Part shown: positions 13,055-19,406 of the stretch, piece after piece
Layout: each line of letters opens with the position of its first letter
Numbering within the stretch: the first letter of the stretch is position 1
Assembly: GCA_001029695.1 (NCBI GenBank)
Contig: CP011211.1
Coordinates: 570,001-602,000 of the forward strand
From: Candidatus Saccharimonadota bacterium
GTDB taxonomy: Bacteria > Patescibacteriota > Saccharimonadia > Saccharimonadales > Saccharimonadaceae
Length of the DNA stretch: 32,000 bases
Direction: 5' to 3'
Program-made: the position numbers and the translations under genes
Notes under the pieces: model-generated
Database searches by the model: none
Told to the model about the DNA's origin: nothing
The model's input: the letters and a program-made list of their open reading frames with translations, nothing else

Positions 13055-13366
13055 CTAGACGTCGACAAACACGACGACGCGATCCGCTTTTACGTGCATG
13101 AGTGCACGATGAATCTTGATGGTTTTTTGACTACCATCTACTGGCTTCACGACAAGACTACACGGCACTAACATACAAAGAAAATTATGATGACGAGGCA
13201 AGATATCAAAAGGACCCGTCTCATTAACCGCGCTCACGCTATACGCGTCACCCTCAAAGTAGACTTGAAATGGCGCATACACCTTAACGGCCATCGTTGG
13301 CTTGCCACCTGATTGCGGTACCGTCTGACTAGAATCAGCTGGCGCAGTGGGAGTTTCGTCGGCCAC
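13055..13366 (-). CDS. atpC: F1 ATPase epsilon subunit, N-terminal beta-sandwich only
   Basis: KVYAPFQVYFEGDAYSVSAVNETGPFDILPRHHNFLCMLVPCSLVV...HRALMHVKADRVVVFVDV matches the epsilon N-terminal domain (GelGILpgH motif region). The GTG at 13366 overlaps the beta stop (TAGTG). An alternative start is the ATG at 13297 (MAVKVY), preceded by AGGTGG. There is no C-terminal helical hairpin. Confidence 0.7.
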   Translation of the reverse strand: MADETPTAPADSSQTVPQSGGKPTMAVKVYAPFQVYFEGDAYSVSAVNETGPFDILPRHHNFLCMLVPCSLVVKPVDGSQKTIKIHRALMHVKADRVVVFVDV

Positions 13367-14805
13367 TATACCTTCTCCTCGGTAGTATCCGAGTGTTCAC
13401 GCGCTACTGACTCATCTGATTCGGACTTCTCGGTAGAAGGCTCCTCAACGACAATATCCGTTATGTCGGATTTACCGATAATCTCTTCGACTCCATCAAG
13501 TGTCTTATCTCGGGTCATGTGCTCACCTGGTACGCCAGTTACTTTCTCCATCACGTTAAATCGCTGCTTGAAAAACTCAATTAACTGTTTTGCTTTATTG
13601 TAGTCATCACGGTCTTCGGTCGAGAGTTCAGACTCACCGATGATAGCAATGATACCCTTTAGAGATTCGTACTTCTGCAAGATTGCCGTTGCTCGTGTCG
13701 CAAGATCATAATGTCGCTCTCCGACAACTTCTGGTGTCAGTAGACTCGATTTAGATGCCAAAATATCCACTGCTGGGCGGATACCCTGTGCTGCGACTGC
13801 ACGACTCAAAACGATCGTAGAATCAAGCTCATGTTGGATCATTTGCACTGCTGGATCAGATAGGTCATCCGCTGGCACGTAAATAGTCTGTAGTGCAGTA
13901 ATTGAACCGTTCTCGTTGCTCGATAGACGATCTTGAAACGTCTTTACGTCACTAAAGACAGTAGGCTGGTAGCCGCCTTCAGCAGGCGTCTGGTCGATAA
14001 TCGTCGAGACTTCGTTTCGAGCCTGAATATAGCGATACATATTGTCTGCAAAGAGGAGGACGTCCTTTTTCTGATCATCACGGAAATATTCTGCAAGTGT
14101 AATTGCACTTAAACCGATAAGGCTACGCTGAACAGGGTTTTCATTCATCTGCCCGAAGAACATTGCCGTCGTCTTGAGTAGATCGTTGTCTTCAAGCGTC
14201 TTATACAGTTCATGCCCCTCACGAATACGCTCACCAATACCGGCAAACATACTGATCGCGCCAGAACCTTCAGCCACATTGTTAATAATCTCCATCGTCA
14301 GCACCGTTTTACCGACACCAGCACCACCGACAATACCAATTTTACGTCCCTTTACGAATGGGGTGAAGAAATCAAGCACTTTTAGCCCTGTCTCCAACAC
14401 ATCGTCAGGACGATTCGCAAGACTCGTTTCCTGGAACGAAGGAGCAAAGATCGCTCGTTTTGGCATCTTCTCAAGTACCGACTCGTCAAGCTGCGGTTTT
14501 CCGTCAATAGGCCGACCCATAGCATCCCAGACACGGCCAATCATTTCGTCGCCAACTGGAATCTCCAAGCTATGACCACTCCTCGAAACACCTTCGCCTT
14601 TTTGAATACTATAATCCCCACCGATATTAAGACAGATAGCCGTATCGCCATGCGCAAGACTACTGACAAGCAGTGGTGATTTTTTTTCGTTATCGACGTA
14701 TAGCATCTCGTTGAGATCTGGCATATCTTCATCAAACTGCACCTTAATCACAAGACCTTTGAGGCTACGTATAACTCCTTTTTTGTATACTGTTTGCTCT
14801 TTCAT
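13366..14805 (-). CDS. atpD: F1 ATPase beta subunit (with acidic C-terminal tail)
   Basis: Walker [22 protein letters not shown]. Catalytic region [21 protein letters not shown] (Walker B region). [22 protein letters not shown] in the DELSEED position. 479 aa, ending in an extra tail [26 protein letters not shown]. Confidence 0.92.
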
Positions 14806-15668
14806 GCTGCCCCCTCTGCCCGTATTTTCTTAAGTCCCGCTAGTGACTCTTTGAGTCGTGTATCAACTTGGCTTCGCTTGGAGCGATTGTATTCTGTATG
14901 CAATTGAGTGGCTGTGTCGATCGAACGCTCTTTGGCGGCCGACATAGCTTTAAATCGACTTGCTACTTGAGCTAAGCGACTGTCGTAGATAAACTGCGAG
15001 ATCGTTAAGCGCAAAATAGAGTTTTCCAAATATGCTGCAACCGCATAAGAGTTCGGTTCGAAGATATAGTTCTTTTCACTCACCAAGTTGTCACCTACCG
15101 TATCCATGTCGGCTACGCGACCTTTACTAGACACCGCTTCACTGAGATCAACGTCTTTAATCTCCTGCTGGCTAAGCGAAATATAGTTCTGGTAGAAGAT
15201 TCGACTCTGGGCGTATTTTCTTATGATATCCATAAGTGGATCAACATTGATATAATCCCCCTCAGGCAAATCAAAGTAGTATTCATAGTCGACATGTGAT
15301 TGTTTGAGTTTTAGTGCACCATGATAACCGATAACGAGAACTTCATTTTTTGTCTCGTCATATCGTTCAAGAAACTTTCGAATCAAGCGTTGATCGATAT
15401 CACCACTCAATCCACCCTTCGCAGTGATGAGAATAAGGAGCTCTTTGTTGACTAGCTTTTCATCAACCTGACGTCCAAAGTTGAAGAGTACATCAACACG
15501 AATCTGTTTATAAATACCCCAAACTTCATCAAAAAACTGGTTACTAATGAGTACTTTATTTTTAGTTTTTGCGATTTGCATGCTGCTTAGCGTCTCAAGC
15601 GCAGAGGTAAGACTTACGACCGATCGTACTGATGCCTCTTCTGCTTTGATTTCGAGTGGACGCCTCAT
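14802..15668 (-). CDS. atpG: F1 ATPase gamma subunit
   Basis: [35 protein letters not shown] aligns with the gamma N-terminal helix. [18 protein letters not shown] aligns with the tdrGLcGg.N region. The C-terminal helix is YIFEPN...[19 protein letters not shown]...[20 protein letters not shown] overlaps on both sides. Confidence 0.85.
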
Positions 15669-17723: not shown

Positions 17724-18535
17724 AATTTCATATCATCCATGATTTCTTGCTTGTTCGCTTCCATTTGTTGGATAATTGACGGAAGCTGAGCCTTCATGTC
17801 GTACTGATCACCCAAAGCGCCTAGTAGGTAGTGCTCTATGACCTGCGCCATATTCCCCTCAAATGCCTCAACGAGCATAGTCTCTTGGTCCGCTACATTC
17901 TTTTGCAGCGTCACACTTAGCTGTTCGTGCTGCTTCTGTAGTGCTTCCGCACTCTCTGTCACAAGCTTCAAAGCCGACTCGTGAGCCTCTTTCATTGCAG
18001 AAATGCGAGCGCTATTTTCTTCAAATACCGTCGAAAGCATCGCATCCTGACTAGCCACATTTTTCTGCAAGGTCTGCCCAAGTTCATGATGCCGTTCCTG
18101 AAGAGCATGTGCACTTTCCATAACAAGATGAAGTGCTGTGTCTTGAGTTTCTTTCATTGCTTTGCTATTTTGCGCAAACTGGTCGTATAGAGATGCGCTC
18201 AGTTGCTTGTGCTGCTCTTCAAGCTCTGCGGCACTGTGACTCATTGAACGAAGCGCCATGTCCTGTGCGTCTTTTAAGACTTTGCTATTTTCGGCAATCT
18301 GCTTATCGAGCTGTTCGGCAATGTGGTCCTTAAGTTCGGCGCTCGCTTTTGCGATAGTCGCGTTTAGATCTTGCTTAAAAGTTGCGGCGTTGTCATCGAT
18401 TACTTTTTCAAAATGAGACTGTCCTCGTTTGCGGAGATCCTGAAAATACCCATCAAAAAAGCGCTGCACACCATCAGTTGTCTCGTCAACCACTGATTCT
18501 TTGTGCGAATGCTGCTTTTTTTGAAATAATCCCAT
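17720..18535 (-). CDS. Soluble coiled-coil protein with three internal repeats, in the position of the b (atpF) subunit but with no TM helix
   Basis: 271 aa. AAGGTGG RBS, with an ATGA overlap onto atpH. There is no hydrophobic segment anywhere. The sequence is rich in heptad-like Q/E/K/A/L. Three about 40-54-aa repeats begin NSKVLKDAQDMAL..., NSKAMKETQDTAL... and NSARISAMKEAHESAL.... The b-subunit assignment is positional only. Confidence 0.6.
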   Translation of the reverse strand: MGLFQKKQHSHKESVVDETTDGVQRFFDGYFQDLRKRGQSHFEKVIDDNAATFKQDLNATIAKASAELKDHIAEQLDKQIAENSKVLKDAQDMALRSMSHSAAELEEQHKQLSASLYDQFAQNSKAMKETQDTALHLVMESAHALQERHHELGQTLQKNVASQDAMLSTVFEENSARISAMKEAHESALKLVTESAEALQKQHEQLSVTLQKNVADQETMLVEAFEGNMAQVIEHYLLGALGDQYDMKAQLPSIIQQMEANKQEIMDDMKL

Positions 18536-18563
18536 ATTCGTTAACCCACCTTAATCTCTAGCA

Positions 18564-19406
18564 TCATAGCTTCAGTAGTAAATATACCGCAAATAGGCCA
18601 ATAATTAAAATCAATATACTCGTCAAGATAATCTCGAGTAGTGCCCGAAAAATTGACTTCTTCGTCATTGGGTTGCGGCCAATCGAAATCACACCACTGC
18701 GCACCCCGGAATACAATACGGCAATCGCCGCAATAAGACTAACCGCTGTAATTGCCATACTCAAATAAATACGAATAGGGCTCACTTCTTTCTCAGCAAT
18801 CGCCTGTCCAATTCGTTCGAGAATTTCAGGAACTTGGACTTTAGTGCTCTTCTCATTAGGGTTACGTTTGATGTCAATCGTCACGGCAACCTGCCCAAGC
18901 GTAACCGTCTGATTAGTCTTACCTTCCGTATCTTTGAGCGTCGTTGTTCCAAGTGTTACGCCCTTGCCATCAAAGGAGCCAGCGGCACGGCCAAACACAG
19001 TTTTCTCCTCGGTACCCGCTTTCATAGCTACGCCGTTCACAGACGACAGCGTCACATAGTCACCTGTCGCTATCGGCCCACCTTGAGTGCTCACCAGAAC
19101 GTTGTACGTACCCGAGACGGCTACGAATGCTTCATTCTCTAGCCCGCCATTGCTAAGCGTCAATGATAGCTGATTTCGGTCAACTGTCACACCAAACATA
19201 TTCTGGAGCTCTGACTGGGTAGCAATTTTTACACGATCAGAATCTTTGCCTGCCATCTGGACAATCGTCCCAGTGTCGAGTGGTGTATCTGACGCATAGC
19301 CCTGCACGCTACCGCCGCCATAGCTCGCCGCAAGAGCTGGAAGAGAGACAGCTGAAGCAACACCGATGATAACGGCAATGGAAACGATAATTCTCGGTAA
19401 TTTCAC
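18564..19406 (-). CDS. Signal peptide + about 180-aa extracytoplasmic domain + C-terminal 2-TM hairpin with a c-subunit-like GRNP loop; first gene of the ATPase operon
   Basis: 280 aa with a GTG start. Signal peptide MKLPRIIVSIAVIIGVASAVSLPALA/AS. A beta-rich Gly/Thr/Val domain follows. Then IRIYLSMAITAVSLIAAIAVLYSGVRSGVISIGRNPMTKKSIFRALLEIILTSILILIIGLFAVYLLLKL, which has a helix-loop-helix layout and an RNP loop like F-type c subunits (compare ...GYARNPSLKQQLF...). It lacks the GxGxGxG motif and the canonical mid-helix carboxylate. Confidence 0.6.
   Translation of the reverse strand: MKLPRIIVSIAVIIGVASAVSLPALAASYGGGSVQGYASDTPLDTGTIVQMAGKDSDRVKIATQSELQNMFGVTVDRNQLSLTLSNGGLENEAFVAVSGTYNVLVSTQGGPIATGDYVTLSSVNGVAMKAGTEEKTVFGRAAGSFDGKGVTLGTTTLKDTEGKTNQTVTLGQVAVTIDIKRNPNEKSTKVQVPEILERIGQAIAEKEVSPIRIYLSMAITAVSLIAAIAVLYSGVRSGVISIGRNPMTKKSIFRALLEIILTSILILIIGLFAVYLLLKL

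What the first reader, a model, noticed from the sequence alone, without database searches (positions are those of the whole stretch)
13055..19406. F1-ATPase operon with no a-subunit or canonical c-subunit gene and non-canonical promoter-proximal genes
**What is present.** Seven minus-strand genes are tightly packed. Six are fused by 1-14-nt overlaps: TAGTG at 13366, ATGA at 14802-14805, 15665-15668 and 17720-17723, and a 14-nt overlap at 17205-17218. The seventh junction is a 28-nt gap carrying an AAGGTGG RBS. Alpha, beta, gamma, epsilon and the C-domain of delta are all recognisable, and the catalytic motifs are intact: [17 protein letters not shown], and ESELSTED in the DELSEED position.

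**What is unusual.** In the canonical atpBEFHAGDC order, the promoter-proximal positions hold a, c and b. Here they hold a coiled-coil protein with no TM segment and a signal-peptide ectodomain fused to a 2-TM hairpin. Upstream of 19406 is a 252-bp divergent promoter region, so no genes are hidden by the window edge. The alpha P-loop is GDSKVGKT rather than the near-invariant GDRQTGKT. The N-terminal half of delta is unalignable by eye.

**Two readings.**
- (a) A split organisation, with the Fo genes elsewhere as in alphaproteobacterial atpHAGDC operons, plus two recruited genes.
- (b) An F1-like X0 ATPase that uses a different membrane partner. This would be conceptually similar to the type 2/type 3 F1-like ATPases of mycoplasmas, which are tied to gliding and to surface-protein systems.

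Reading (b) would be a new system outside the mycoplasmas.
Basis: partly seen in the sequence, partly recalled or inferred. Interest (0 to 1): 0.85.

Follow-up and report, generated by a model that had tools for sequence, protein, structure and literature searches.

The report
Second, F1-like ATPase beside CPR pilus genes
These seven genes encode a second, non-canonical F1-type ATPase, conserved across Saccharibacteria and other ultrasmall (CPR) bacteria, whose membrane part is a surface-exposed protein rather than a proton channel, so it probably spends ATP to do mechanical work on the neighbouring pilus and fibre proteins.

Summary
All seven minus-strand ORFs, the junctions, the motifs and the 252-bp divergent spacer are as described.

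Reading (b) is supported and reading (a) is disfavoured.

- **Conservation.** The g1-g2-delta-alpha-gamma-beta-epsilon module keeps its order in all 80 Saccharibacteria species loci fetched. It recurs in five distant CPR loci whose alphas are only 35-54% identical.
- **Distinct family.** Every F1 subunit scores below the curated cut-offs for canonical, N-type and mycoplasma Type 2/3 families. The alphas form their own clade with a GDxK[ST]GK[TS] P-loop.
- **g1.** It combines a signal peptide, an ectodomain resembling a phage fibre or decoration domain, and a c-subunit-like hairpin. The hairpin has an invariant RNP loop but no conserved carboxylate.
- **g2.** It is b-like, with an N-terminal TM helix plus coiled coil in distant lineages. 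The TM helix is lost here.
- **No a-subunit** is present.
- **Co-occurrence.** Published KEGG counts for complete genomes (S. aalborgensis, GWC2_44_17, M. amalyticus) show one a/b/c set but two alpha/beta/gamma sets.
- **Neighbourhood.** The cluster abuts the newly described CPR Pam pilus operon. A 2026 preprint noted "ATP synthase" genes there but read them as ordinary.

The mechanism, ATP-driven torque delivered to the cell surface, is inferred and not shown.

The parts
18564..19406 (-). g1, the membrane subunit (280 aa). It has a signal peptide, a beta-rich ectodomain (about residues 31-185), a linker helix and a C-terminal 2-TM hairpin (helices 210-244 and 249-279). The cytoplasmic loop reads SIGRNPM.
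   Evidence: - ORF; hydropathy.
- No Pfam, NCBIfam or PHROG family.
- 1830 homologues, the top 120 at 76-99% identity.
- R244, N245 and P246 are invariant even in homologues only 23-28% identical overall. E258 is Q, S or another residue in those homologues.
- AF2 model: mean pLDDT 74.7, ectodomain 80-93.
- Foldseek matches: phage preneck-appendage C-terminal domain, DUF2190 and capsid decoration proteins.
- hhalign places the RNP loop on the c-subunit RQP loop, but weakly (P 0.009, probability 4%).
17720..18535 (-). g2, a coiled-coil protein (271 aa) read as a b-like peripheral-stalk subunit. It has no TM helix here, a conserved N-terminus MGLFxxK, and three internal repeats (residues 82-121, 122-172, 173-226).
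   Evidence: - No TM helix.
- Homologues in L084, L089, L091 and L092 have an N-terminal TM helix, a coiled coil and a shared C-terminal motif (Y-L-x-A-x-G-D ... EANKxAI).
- All 80 Saccharimonadales orthologues lack the TM helix.
- Repeats: z 8-20 against shuffles.
- The profile finds only generic coiled coils in the PDB, not b subunits.
17205..17723 (-). g3, a delta/OSCP-like subunit (172 aa). Only the C-terminal domain is delta-like. The N-terminal half is family-specific.
   Evidence: - Pfam OSCP 22.3 bits at residues 94-156.
- A profile of 9 homologues hits solved delta/OSCP chains at E 1.2e-9, profile positions 46-154 against delta residues 71-177.
- Homologues in L091 and L092 carry precomputed OSCP hits.
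15665..17218 (-). alpha-like subunit (517 aa) with P-loop GDSKVGKT.
   Evidence: - PF00006 at 1e-63.
- TIGR00962 361 bits against a cut-off of 484. Below cut-off for the N-ATPase, MMOB1660 and MSC_0619 models too.
- Only about 32-37% identical to canonical alphas.
- Lies in a monophyletic clade sharing GDxK[ST]GK[TS] (NJ bootstrap 76/100).
14802..15668 (-). gamma-like subunit (288 aa).
   Evidence: - PF00231 at 5e-26.
- TIGR01146 77.6 bits against a cut-off of 194.
- For comparison, the canonical Saccharibacteria gamma (Southlakia) hits PF00231 at 3.5e-82.
13366..14805 (-). beta-like catalytic subunit (479 aa). It carries Walker [18 protein letters not shown], and ESELSTED in place of DELSEED.
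   Evidence: - Motifs.
- TIGR01039 435.6 bits against 462.85; MSC_0618 399.5 against 570.
- 81-94% identical across 80 species.
- Annotated publicly as an ordinary atpD.
13055..13366 (-). epsilon-like subunit (103 aa). It has the beta-sandwich N-domain only, with no C-terminal helical domain.
   Evidence: - PF02823 at residues 25-102.
- Distant homologues are 84-101 aa.
- The canonical Southlakia epsilon has both domains.
19407..19658 (.). 252-bp divergent intergenic region. On the minus strand, TTGACA lies at 19482-19477 and TGGTATAAT at about 19458-19450, upstream of g1.
   Evidence: - Sequence.
- The promoter scan lists TTGACA-16-TATGGT at 19482-19455, but the number of such sites in the region is no higher than in shuffles.
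- The extended -10 reading is by eye.
12020..13036 (+). Convergent neighbour (338 aa). It has a cytoplasmic N-tail, one TM helix and a beta-helix-like ectodomain. It is probably the 'tail fibre-like protein' of the Pam preprint.
   Evidence: - Weak Bactofilin-type repeat hit.
- Same position and orientation in essentially all Saccharimonadales loci and in L089.
3813..11912 (-). pam (CPR-type pilus) operon.
- PamT: 11172-11912
- Pam pilins: 9422-11026, 8226-9302, 4890-6026
- PapD/WxLIP-like chaperones: 7108-8169, 3813-4871
- PamR: 6129-7055
   Evidence: - NCBIfam PamT 292.6 bits against a cut-off of 240.
- NCBIfam PamR 393.9 bits against a cut-off of 300.
- CPR_Pam_pilin_C domain in three proteins.
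- Pfam WxLIP_PGBD and PKD.
- Synteny with the ATPase module.
19659..22772 (+). Divergently transcribed 1037-aa secreted protein, rich in Gly, Ser, Thr and Asn. It is a conserved neighbour.
   Evidence: - ORF; no family match.
- Homologue upstream of g1 on the opposite strand in most loci.

Best explanation
**What it is.** The seven genes encode a self-contained, paralogous F1-like rotary ATPase. It is not the cell's ATP synthase.

**Proposed anatomy.**
- Catalytic head: alpha3beta3. Beta has intact catalytic motifs. Alpha has an altered non-catalytic P-loop.
- Central stalk: gamma plus a truncated epsilon.
- Peripheral stalk: a delta-like protein (C-terminal domain only) plus the b-like coiled coil g2.
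- Membrane part: an oligomer of g1, which takes the place of Fo.

**g1 and the c subunit.** g1 has the topology of a c subunit: N-terminus outside, a short polar RNP loop in the cytoplasm, C-terminus outside. It differs in carrying a roughly 160-residue external domain of a phage fibre or decoration fold. It also has no conserved intramembrane carboxylate.

**Proposed function.** There is no a-subunit. The complex therefore most likely cannot use or build an ion gradient. Instead it would hydrolyse ATP and pass torque, or a conformational stroke, from gamma/epsilon through the g1 hairpins to the cell exterior. There it would act on the co-encoded surface filaments, namely the Pam donor-strand-exchange pilus and the tail-fibre-like protein. 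This is analogous to the way mycoplasma Type 2 and Type 3 F1-like ATPases serve gliding legs and the MIB-MIP system.

**Shown versus inferred.**
- Shown: gene content, conservation, paralogy, topology, fold of the ectodomain, and adjacency to the pam operon.
- Inferred: assembly into one complex, hydrolysis-only operation, rotation, and the link to pili.
For: 1. **Conserved unit.** The module has the same order in 80 of 80 species-level Saccharibacteria loci. It recurs in L084, L089, L090, L091 and L092, whose alphas are 35-54% identical to the window's.
2. **Distinct family.**
   - All subunits fall below the curated NCBIfam cut-offs, as do 8 of 10 related alpha representatives.
   - The alpha clade is monophyletic (76/100) and shares a GDxK[ST]GK[TS] P-loop.
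3. **Co-occurrence with a canonical enzyme.**
   - Complete genomes of S. aalborgensis, GWC2_44_17 and M. amalyticus have one copy each of a, b and c but two each of alpha, beta and gamma.
   - TM7x and RAAC3 have one of each.
   - CAILAD01 bins have alpha/beta/gamma/epsilon without a/b/c (PMC12592800 Table S5).
   - Southlakia has only the canonical operon.
4. **Own stalk.**
   - The g3 profile hits solved delta/OSCP C-domains at 1e-9.
   - g2 homologues have an N-terminal TM helix plus coiled coil.
5. **g1.**
   - The RNP loop is invariant across the family, and no acidic residue is conserved in TM2.
   - hhalign aligns the RNP loop to the c-subunit RQP loop.
   - The ectodomain model is confident and phage-fibre or decoration-like.
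6. **Strong purifying selection.** Beta is 81-94% and alpha 70-92% identical across species.
7. **Neighbourhood.**
   - The Pam pilus operon and a tail-fibre-like gene flank the module here and in L084 and L089.
   - Peptidase_S74 fibre-like proteins or giant surface proteins flank it in L090 and L092.
   - The Pam preprint independently reports consistent co-localisation.
[quoted passage not shown] The Type 3 enzyme is required for a surface system (PMC12994834).
Against: - There is no experimental or structural evidence here that the seven products assemble, that g1 contacts gamma/epsilon, or that anything rotates.
- Homology of the g1 hairpin to c subunits is not established. HMMER finds nothing and the hhalign probability is 4%.
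- Phage relatives of the ectodomain fold form trimers, as far as I recall. This fits a c-ring-like oligomer poorly.
- In this lineage g2 has no TM helix, so the membrane anchor of the stator is unexplained.
- The Pam link is by adjacency only.
   - Genome order may simply be conserved within Saccharimonadales.
   - L090, L091 and L092 show no recognisable Pam genes nearby.
   - Southlakia has a DUF916/WxL-type cluster but no F1-like ATPase.
   - The Pam preprint argues that no dedicated machinery is needed.
- Identification of the second alpha/beta/gamma copies in the three complete genomes with this module is inferred, not checked on sequence.
- The window's own genome was not searched.
Confidence: 0.6

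Rival explanations
1. **Ordinary split ATP synthase.** These would be the organism's only F1 genes. They would work with atpB/atpE/atpF encoded elsewhere, and g1 and g2 would be unrelated passengers.
For: - The order delta-alpha-gamma-beta-epsilon is the canonical F1 order.
- Public annotation calls the products F0F1 ATP synthase subunits.
- Split atpHAGDC-type clusters do exist, for example L086.
- The window's own genome could not be searched for a second set.
Against: - g1 and g2 travel with the F1 genes across lineages with only 35% alpha identity.
- Related complete genomes carry two alpha/beta/gamma sets but only one a/b/c set.
- Canonical Saccharibacteria operons are contiguous, and their subunits match the Pfam models far more strongly (gamma 3.5e-82 against 5e-26 here).
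- All subunits here fail the equivalog cut-offs.
- Delta lacks the canonical N-domain and epsilon lacks its C-domain.
Confidence: 0.06
2. **Ion-translocating variant.** The g1 oligomer would be a true c-ring that borrows the a-subunit of the canonical enzyme, or uses an unrecognised stator. The complex would pump or use H+ or Na+, with the ectodomain as decoration.
For: - g1 has c-like topology and an RNP loop.
- E258 lies in TM2 in the Saccharimonadales group, nearly invariant there.
- NCBI names one distant alpha a 'sodium-transporting two-sector ATPase'.
Against: - E258 sits 14 residues after the loop Arg, not about 20 as in c subunits. It is Q, S or another residue in L084, L089, L090, L091 and L092.
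- No a-like gene occurs in any of about 85 loci.
- CAILAD01 bins have alpha/beta/gamma/epsilon but no a/b/c.
- No Pfam ATP-synt_C signal.
Confidence: 0.08
3. **Non-rotary export or unfolding ATPase.** The hexamer and gamma would work like the type III secretion FliI/FliJ/FliH complex. They would feed or activate substrates such as fibre proteins or pilins at a g1 gate, rather than turning a rotor.
For: - Alpha and beta also score well against the FliI/SctN models (E 1e-51 to 1e-66).
- FliH is b/delta-like, from established knowledge of the flagellar export apparatus.
- Secreted fibre and pilus genes are adjacent.
Against: - The complex has separate alpha and beta subunits. It also has true gamma, epsilon and delta homologues, which are hallmarks of F1 rather than of homohexameric T3SS ATPases.
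- The neighbouring pilins and g1 itself carry Sec-type signal peptides, and the preprint assigns export to SecY.
- A 2-TM hairpin is an unlikely protein-conducting channel.
Confidence: 0.12
4. **Decaying duplicate.** The cluster would be a non-functional copy of the ATP synthase F1 genes.
For: - Scores lie below the family cut-offs.
- Epsilon is truncated and delta is a half-protein.
Against: - All seven reading frames are intact.
- The genes are translationally coupled.
- Catalytic motifs are intact.
- Conservation is very high across 80 species (beta 81-94%).
- The module has an ancient spread across CPR.
Confidence: 0.02

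Closest known systems
Mycoplasma Type 3 'F1-like X0' ATPase (MSC_0618-0624 / MMCAP2_0575-0581; Beven 2012 PMC3369863; Berlureau 2026 PMC12994834)
   Same: - A seven-gene cluster present in addition to the genuine F1Fo.
- Alpha-, beta-, gamma- and epsilon-like subunits.
- No a or c subunit.
[quoted passage not shown]
- Genetic linkage to a cell-surface system.
- Proposed ATP hydrolysis that energises events outside the membrane.
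   Different: - Gene order differs.
- The 12-TM protein and the small cytoplasmic protein are absent here.
- Delta-like and b-like stalk subunits are present here but absent in mycoplasmas.
- g1 is 280 aa, against about 770 aa for the mycoplasma protein.
- NCBIfam family cut-offs are not met (beta 399.5 against 570; alpha 238.6 against 520).
- No NCBIfam family of any kind matches g1 at E <= 1. No sequence of mycoplasma Protein 5 was available for a direct comparison.
- The partner system is a pilus or fibre, not MIB-MIP.
- The host is CPR, not Mollicutes.
Mycoplasma mobile Type 2 gliding 'G1' ATPase (MMOB1610-1670; PMC8406192, PMC11864180)
   Same: - An F1-like alpha/beta/gamma motor whose force is thought to be passed across the membrane to surface 'legs'.
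- It contains a protein with a signal peptide and 2 C-terminal TM helices, MMOB1650.
   Different: - The window's beta lacks the long N-terminal extension, so a twin-motor dimer is not expected.
- NCBIfam cut-offs are not met (alpha 327.7 against 600; beta 364.3 against 850).
- No jellyfish cytoskeleton genes were seen.
Canonical bacterial F1Fo ATP synthase (e.g. Southlakia epibionticum SEML1_0349-0358)
   Same: - Homologous alpha, beta, gamma, epsilon N-domain and delta C-domain.
- Same relative order of the F1 genes.
- Membrane subunit topology like that of c.
- Stalk subunit architecture like that of b.
   Different: - No a subunit.
- No Pfam-recognisable c or b subunit.
- No conserved carboxylate.
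- An ectodomain on the hairpin.
- Alpha P-loop without Arg.
- Epsilon without its helical domain.
- Delta without its N-domain.
- About 32-41% identity to canonical alpha and beta.
Pam pilus system of CPR bacteria (Troman et al., bioRxiv 10.64898/2026.03.03.709456)
   Same: - The window holds a full pam operon directly downstream. PamT and PamR score above the NCBIfam cut-offs.
- The preprint reports 'ATP synthase subunit' genes and a tail-fibre-like gene as central, conserved neighbours.
   Different: - The preprint treats these genes as ordinary ATP synthase and as a metabolic coupling. It concludes that no specialised assembly machinery exists.
- In this report they are shown to be a separate F1-like module with its own membrane and stalk subunits.
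N-ATPase (alternate F1Fo; TIGR03324/TIGR03305)
   Same: A second, laterally mobile F-type operon that coexists with the main enzyme.
   Different: - N-ATPases keep the a, c and b subunits and AtpQ/R, as in L088.
- Cut-offs are far from met here (303 against 750; 396 against 752).

Membership tests
Canonical F-type ATP synthase (F1Fo) | a subunit (PF00119) encoded with, or used by, the complex | tested here: not met
   - No PF00119 hit in the seven proteins or anywhere in the 32-kb window.
- None among the called genes of L001, L084 and L089-L092.
- Use of an a subunit encoded elsewhere cannot be excluded.
Canonical F-type ATP synthase (F1Fo) | c subunit (PF00137) with an intramembrane carboxylate about 20 residues after the RQP loop | tested here: not met
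   - No PF00137 hit, even for the isolated hairpin at E <= 10.
- The profile finds no c subunit in the PDB.
- hhalign is weak.
- E258 lies at +14 and is not conserved in distant members.
Canonical F-type ATP synthase (F1Fo) | alpha, beta, gamma and epsilon reach the curated equivalog scores | tested here: not met
   Scores against cut-offs:
- alpha 361.2 against 484.45
- beta 435.6 against 462.85
- gamma 77.6 against 194.45
- epsilon 33.0 against 67.25
Canonical F-type ATP synthase (F1Fo) | Sole alpha/beta pair of the genome | tested here: inconclusive
   - Not testable for the window's own genome.
- Related complete genomes have two alpha/beta/gamma sets and one a/b/c set, according to PMC12592800 Table S5.
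Mycoplasma Type 3 F1-like X0 ATPase (MSC_0618/0619 family) | alpha and beta reach the NCBIfam MSC_0619 and MSC_0618 cut-offs | tested here: not met
   alpha 238.6 against 520; beta 399.5 against 570.
Mycoplasma Type 3 F1-like X0 ATPase (MSC_0618/0619 family) | 12-TM protein and small cytoplasmic protein in the cluster; no delta or b homologue | tested here: not met
   - No multi-TM protein in the cluster.
- Delta-like g3 and b-like g2 are present.
Mycoplasma Type 3 F1-like X0 ATPase (MSC_0618/0619 family) | Protein with a signal peptide, an external region and two C-terminal TM helices | tested here: met
   - g1 has this architecture.
- Sequence homology to the mycoplasma protein was not detected or could not be tested. 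No NCBIfam hit for g1 at E <= 1.
Mycoplasma Type 2 gliding ATPase (MMOB1660/1670 family) | NCBIfam glide_MMOB1660 and glide_MMOB1670 cut-offs; N-terminal extension of beta | tested here: not met
   - alpha 327.7 against 600; beta 364.3 against 850.
- The match to the beta model starts at model position 228, so the extension is absent.
N-ATPase (alternate F1Fo) | TIGR03324 and TIGR03305 cut-offs; the operon contains a, c and b | tested here: not met
   303.3 against 750.5 and 396.4 against 752. No a, c or b genes.
CPR F1-like ATPase module (family proposed here) | Seven-gene order: g1 (SP, ectodomain, RNP hairpin), g2 (coiled coil), OSCP-C-like protein, alpha (GDxK[ST/V]GK[TS]), gamma, beta, short epsilon | tested here: met
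   - Window.
- 80 Saccharibacteria loci.
- L089, L091 and L092 have the same order.
- L084 and L090 are variants.
Pam pilus system (neighbouring genes) | PamT and PamR equivalog cut-offs; Pam pilin C-domain | tested here: met
   - PamT 292.6 against 240.
- PamR 393.9 against 300.
- CPR_Pam_pilin_C at 154.7, 66.3 and 43.7 bits against a cut-off of 55, so two of the three are above it.

The most novel reading that the evidence does not exclude
CPR bacteria carry a previously unrecognised class of rotary nanomachine: an ATP-driven F1 motor with a peripheral stalk. Its rotor ring is built from hairpin subunits that each display a phage-fibre-like domain outside the cell. Cytoplasmic ATP hydrolysis would therefore spin or crank an extracellular assembly. 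This would provide the missing energy source or platform (a functional 'usher') for assembling, rotating or tensioning Pam pili and fibre adhesins on a cell with no outer membrane. [quoted passage not shown]
Probability: 0.3. Interest if true: 0.92.

Novelty: new variant of a known kind. Interest (0 to 1): 0.8.

Why it matters
**Status of the field.** F1-like ATPases that have dropped ion translocation and instead power surface processes were thought to be a mycoplasma speciality. Beven et al. [quoted passage not shown]

**What this module adds.**
- It shows an independent or anciently related version spread through Saccharibacteria and other CPR lineages.
- Its subunit solution differs from the mycoplasma one: a delta/b-type stalk is retained, and c is replaced by a hairpin with an ectodomain.

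**Consequences.**
- KEGG and PGAP call these genes atpA/atpD/atpG. This inflates 'complete F-type ATPase' calls in CPR metabolic reconstructions.
- The 'ATP synthase next to pam' observation in the Pam preprint gains a different meaning.
- It yields a concrete, testable candidate for how an epibiont with a single membrane delivers energy to extracellular pili or fibres used for host attachment.
- Cultured carriers exist (TM7i / Leucosynbacter, Mycosynbacter amalyticus) and genetics has become possible in Saccharibacteria. The question can therefore be addressed directly.

Tried and rejected
**1. Direct proof of a canonical operon in a genome carrying the module.** None of these routes worked:
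- No second alpha/beta copy lies within 10 kb of any of the 80 loci.
- Cluster look-ups of 30 alpha representatives gave almost no organism names.
- Context look-ups of candidate canonical alphas returned the wrong organisms: a 28%-GC endosymbiont-like organism (L086), a Mollicute (L087) and an N-ATPase operon (L088).
- The question was finally answered only indirectly, by published KO counts.

**2. Homology of the g1 hairpin to c subunits.**
- HMMER against Pfam and the PDB found nothing.
- hhalign gave a register-correct but non-significant match.
- I therefore describe g1 as c-like in topology only.

**3. First AF2 run of g1.** With 24 sequences the model was unusable (pLDDT 48.5). A 68-sequence MSA then worked.

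**4. A profile search to widen the g1 family.** It returned the same Saccharimonadales clade.

**5. g2 against b subunits by profile.** Only generic coiled coils were found.

**6. PHROGs** for g1, g2 and the neighbours: no hits.

**7. Literature searches** for 'F1-like' together with Saccharibacteria: no papers.

**8. Other scans.**
- tRNA and Rfam scans of the window: nothing.
- The promoter scan was not above chance.
- No DNA-level tandem repeat in g2.

Full report
**1.
The window carries seven tightly packed minus-strand ORFs at exactly the reported coordinates. Reading the junctions on the minus strand confirms each claim:
- TAGTG at the beta/epsilon boundary.
- ATGA overlaps at 14802-14805, 15665-15668 and 17720-17723.
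- A 14-nt overlap at 17205-17218.
- A 28-nt g1/g2 spacer containing AAGGTGG.

The motifs are also at the stated places: [17 protein letters not shown] and ESELSTED in beta, and GDSKVGKT in alpha. A hydropathy scan finds hydrophobic segments only in g1, namely an N-terminal signal-like helix and two C-terminal helices.

Pfam recognises alpha, beta, gamma and the epsilon N-domain. For g3 it matches only the C-terminal third of OSCP, exactly at threshold. Nothing matches g1 or g2.

**2. These are not ordinary F1 genes.**
Against NCBIfam, every subunit falls below the curated score of the canonical equivalog:
- alpha 361 against 484
- beta 436 against 463
- gamma 78 against 194
- epsilon 33 against 67

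They also fall below the cut-offs of the N-ATPase, the mycoplasma gliding (MMOB1660/1670) and the mycoplasma Type 3 (MSC_0618/0619) families.

This is not general CPR divergence. The cultured Saccharibacterium Southlakia epibionticum has a contiguous atpI-a-c-b-delta-alpha-gamma-(DUF4406)-beta-epsilon operon. Its gamma hits PF00231 at 3.5e-82, against 5e-26 here, and its epsilon has both domains. That genome contains only two PF00006 proteins, so it lacks the present cluster.

**3. Organism and conservation.**
Source names on g1 homologues identify Saccharibacteria/Saccharimonadales. g1, which has no family assignment, has about 1800 homologues. The listed ones are 76-99% identical.

A scan of one genome per GTDB species with a g1 alignment returned 80 loci. 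Nearly all are labelled Saccharibacteria, and one is the complete genome of strain TM7i. tblastn shows the order g1-g2-g3-alpha-gamma-beta-epsilon in every locus long enough to show it. Identities to the window's proteins were:

| Subunit | Identity across the 80 loci |
|---|---|
| beta | 81-94% |
| alpha | 70-92% |
| gamma | 62-90% |
| g1 | 57-88% |
| g3 | 42-67% |
| g2 | 28-51% |

The two upstream genes are thus integral and ancient parts of the unit, not recent recruits.

**4. The family reaches far beyond this clade.**
An exhaustive search of 1.84 billion representatives with alpha found its best relatives at only 52-58% identity. Next came a set of 466-484-aa alphas at 35-39% identity, all with the P-loop GDxK[ST]GK[TS]. 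Canonical alphas with GDRQTGKT lie at about 33-37%.

Of ten related representatives scanned, none with the GDxKS/T P-loop in the core clade reaches any curated family cut-off. In an NJ tree rooted on beta subunits, the 15 core sequences form one clade with bootstrap 76/100.

Genomic contexts of five such distant members are as follows:
- **L089, L091 and L092** have the same seven-gene order. The products are a roughly 275-aa g1-like protein, a roughly 200-aa g2-like protein, a 147-171-aa OSCP-like protein, alpha, gamma, beta and an 84-101-aa epsilon.
- **L084** has g2-delta-alpha-gamma-beta-epsilon flanked by two g1 paralogues on the other strand.
- **L090** has a g1-like gene directly before alpha.

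**5. What g1, g2 and g3 are.**

*g1.* Its topology is that of a c subunit: N-terminus outside, a short cytoplasmic loop, C-terminus outside.
- Across homologues only 23-28% identical overall, the loop residues R244, N245 and P246 are invariant. This recalls the RQP/RNP loop of c subunits that contacts gamma/epsilon, a point of established knowledge about F-ATPases.
- hhalign aligns the two loops in register, but without significance (P 0.009, probability 4%). HMMER finds no c subunit. Homology is therefore unproven.
- There is no conserved membrane carboxylate. E258 of the window protein lies 14 residues after the Arg rather than about 20, and it is Q, S or another residue in distant members.
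- An AF2 model built on 68 sequences is confident for the ectodomain (pLDDT 80-93).
- That model matches the C-terminal domain of phage phi29-type preneck appendage (tail-spike) proteins, DUF2190 proteins and capsid decoration proteins. Against BFVD the E-value is 6.7e-9 with rmsd about 3 A over about 150 residues. Matching PDB entries include 8hdt_G, 8pkh and 3gqh.

*g2.* In L084, L089, L091 and L092 it has an N-terminal TM helix followed by a long coiled coil and a conserved C-terminal motif. That is the architecture and operon position of subunit b.
- In all 80 Saccharimonadales loci the TM helix is missing and the protein begins MGLFxxK.
- The window's copy is lengthened by three internal repeats.
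- A profile search does not retrieve b subunits. 'b-like' therefore rests on architecture, not on demonstrated homology.

*g3.* A nine-sequence profile hits solved delta/OSCP chains at E 1e-9 over the linker and the C-terminal domain. In canonical enzymes that region binds b. The N-terminal half is family-specific.

**6. Is there a canonical enzyme as well?**
I could not search the window's own genome. No second alpha/beta copy lies within 10 kb of any locus.

The answer comes from the literature. Table S5 of Kagemasa et al. 2025 (PMC12592800) gives BlastKOALA counts for complete genomes and bins:

| Genome(s) | a | b | c | epsilon | alpha | beta | gamma |
|---|---|---|---|---|---|---|---|
| S. 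aalborgensis, GWC2_44_17, M. amalyticus | 1 | 1 | 1 | 1 | 2 | 2 | 2 |
| TM7x, RAAC3 | 1 | 1 | 1 | 1 | 1 | 1 | 1 |
| Several bins of order CAILAD01 | 0 | 0 | 0 | mostly 1 | 1 | mostly 1 | 1 |

M. amalyticus is the organism in which ATP-synthase-like genes were reported next to the pam operon. Every pam-adjacent set I examined is this a/b/c-less module. The second copies are therefore most simply this module. That last step is inference.

**7. Neighbourhood.**
NCBIfam (release of June 2026) identifies the genes directly downstream as the CPR 'Pam' pilus system:
- PamT at 11172-11912.
- Three proteins with the Pam pilin C-domain.
- PamR at 6129-7055.
- Two PapD/WxLIP-like chaperones.

The convergent 338-aa gene between the two operons (12020-13036) encodes a single-pass membrane protein with a beta-helix-like ectodomain. 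It is probably the 'tail fibre-like protein' of the preprint. These neighbours keep their positions across the 80 loci and in L089. L084 has Pam-type pilins and chaperones on the other side.

Elsewhere the module sits next to different surface proteins:
- Peptidase_S74 tail-fibre-like proteins in L090.
- Giant surface proteins in L092.

The preprint of Troman et al. (June 2026) solved Pam pilus structures. It noted that 'ATP synthase subunit' genes and a tail-fibre-like gene are central, conserved neighbours. It interpreted this as coupling to ATP production, and it concluded that no specialised assembly machinery exists.

**8. Mechanism.**
The parts list has several components:
- A complete catalytic head.
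- A central stalk lacking the inhibitory epsilon helices.
- A delta/b-type peripheral stalk.
- A c-like hairpin without an ion-binding carboxylate.
- No a subunit.
- An ectodomain of a fold used by phages at fibre and capsid interfaces.

From these I infer an ATP-hydrolysing motor. Its rotor, or at least its gamma/epsilon-coupled membrane element, transmits work to the outside. The likely targets are the co-encoded filaments.

The mycoplasma Type 2 and Type 3 enzymes are the precedent. [quoted passage not shown] Type 3 was shown in 2026 to be required for MIB-MIP function, and Type 2 drives gliding.

What remains unknown:
- The stoichiometry of g1 (ring or trimer).
- How the stator is anchored where g2 lacks a TM helix.
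- Whether the target is the Pam pilus, the fibre-like protein, or both.

**9. Novelty.**
No paper in the searchable library links Saccharibacteria with F1-like ATPases. The mycoplasma papers do not mention relatives outside the Mollicutes (abstract of PMC3369863). Public annotation labels the products as ordinary atpA/atpD.

The kind of system, an F1-like ATPase serving a surface system, is known. This subunit composition and phyletic range are not. I therefore rate it a new variant of a known kind, of high interest. The caveat is that function and assembly are inferred.

Noticed in passing
window 3813-11912 (-): A complete CPR 'Pam' pilus operon lies directly downstream of the ATPase cluster. 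It comprises PamT, three Pam-pilin-domain proteins, two PapD/WxLIP-like chaperones and PamR. The family was only described in a June 2026 preprint.
   Followed up: partly
window 17720-18535 (-), g2: g2 has three internal repeats of about 40-54 aa (residues 82-121, 122-172, 173-226; z 8-20 against shuffles). In all 80 Saccharimonadales orthologues the N-terminal TM helix found in distant homologues is replaced by a conserved MGLFxxK start. How the stalk is then anchored is unexplained.
   Followed up: partly
window 18564-19406 (-), g1 ectodomain, residues about 31-185: The predicted fold matches the phage phi29 gp12-type preneck appendage C-terminal domain, DUF2190 proteins and capsid decoration proteins. 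In L090 the module is followed by Peptidase_S74 tail-fibre-like proteins. This suggests a recurring link between the module and phage-fibre-like parts.
   Followed up: partly
window 19309-19485 (-) versus the g1 start at 19406: Some g1 orthologues begin with an extra MEYKQ/MEPKQ... extension. In the window a matching MESKQ... is encoded in a different frame just upstream of the GTG start. The true start, or a frameshift, was not resolved.
   Followed up: no
alpha representatives P0246, P0209, P0261, P0230, P0201, P0185, P0257, P0218, P0168, P0162: A second basal clade of short (about 480-527 aa) alpha-like proteins has the P-loop GDRKTGKT. For one of them (P0209) the gliding-ATPase model scores higher than atpA. 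This may be another atypical F1 family.
   Followed up: no
L086 7543-11972 (JGI 3300017639, 604-kb contig, 28% GC): An atpH-A-G-D-(97 aa) cluster has no a, c or b genes beside it, in a very AT-rich, small-genome organism. It is an example of a genuinely split or F1-only arrangement.
   Followed up: no
PMC12592800 Table S5, columns for order CAILAD01: Several Saccharimonadia bins of order CAILAD01 carry alpha/beta/gamma/epsilon but no a, b or c genes. Some lineages may therefore have only an F1-like enzyme and no canonical ATP synthase.
   Followed up: no
window 30937-31923 (-): A 328-aa ORF holds only the C-terminal AAA_2 and D2-small half of a ClpB-type chaperone. It is either a split gene or a mis-called start.
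   Followed up: no
window 19659-22772 (+) and 22879-23595 (+): A 1037-aa secreted protein rich in Gly, Ser, Thr and Asn, and a 238-aa protein, are transcribed divergently from the ATPase promoter region. Both keep this position in most related loci. Neither has a family assignment.
   Followed up: partly
window 581-3342 (-): A luciferase-like monooxygenase and an MFS transporter lie beyond the pam operon. The Pam preprint also lists an MFS transporter among the conserved neighbours in relatives of M. amalyticus.
   Followed up: no
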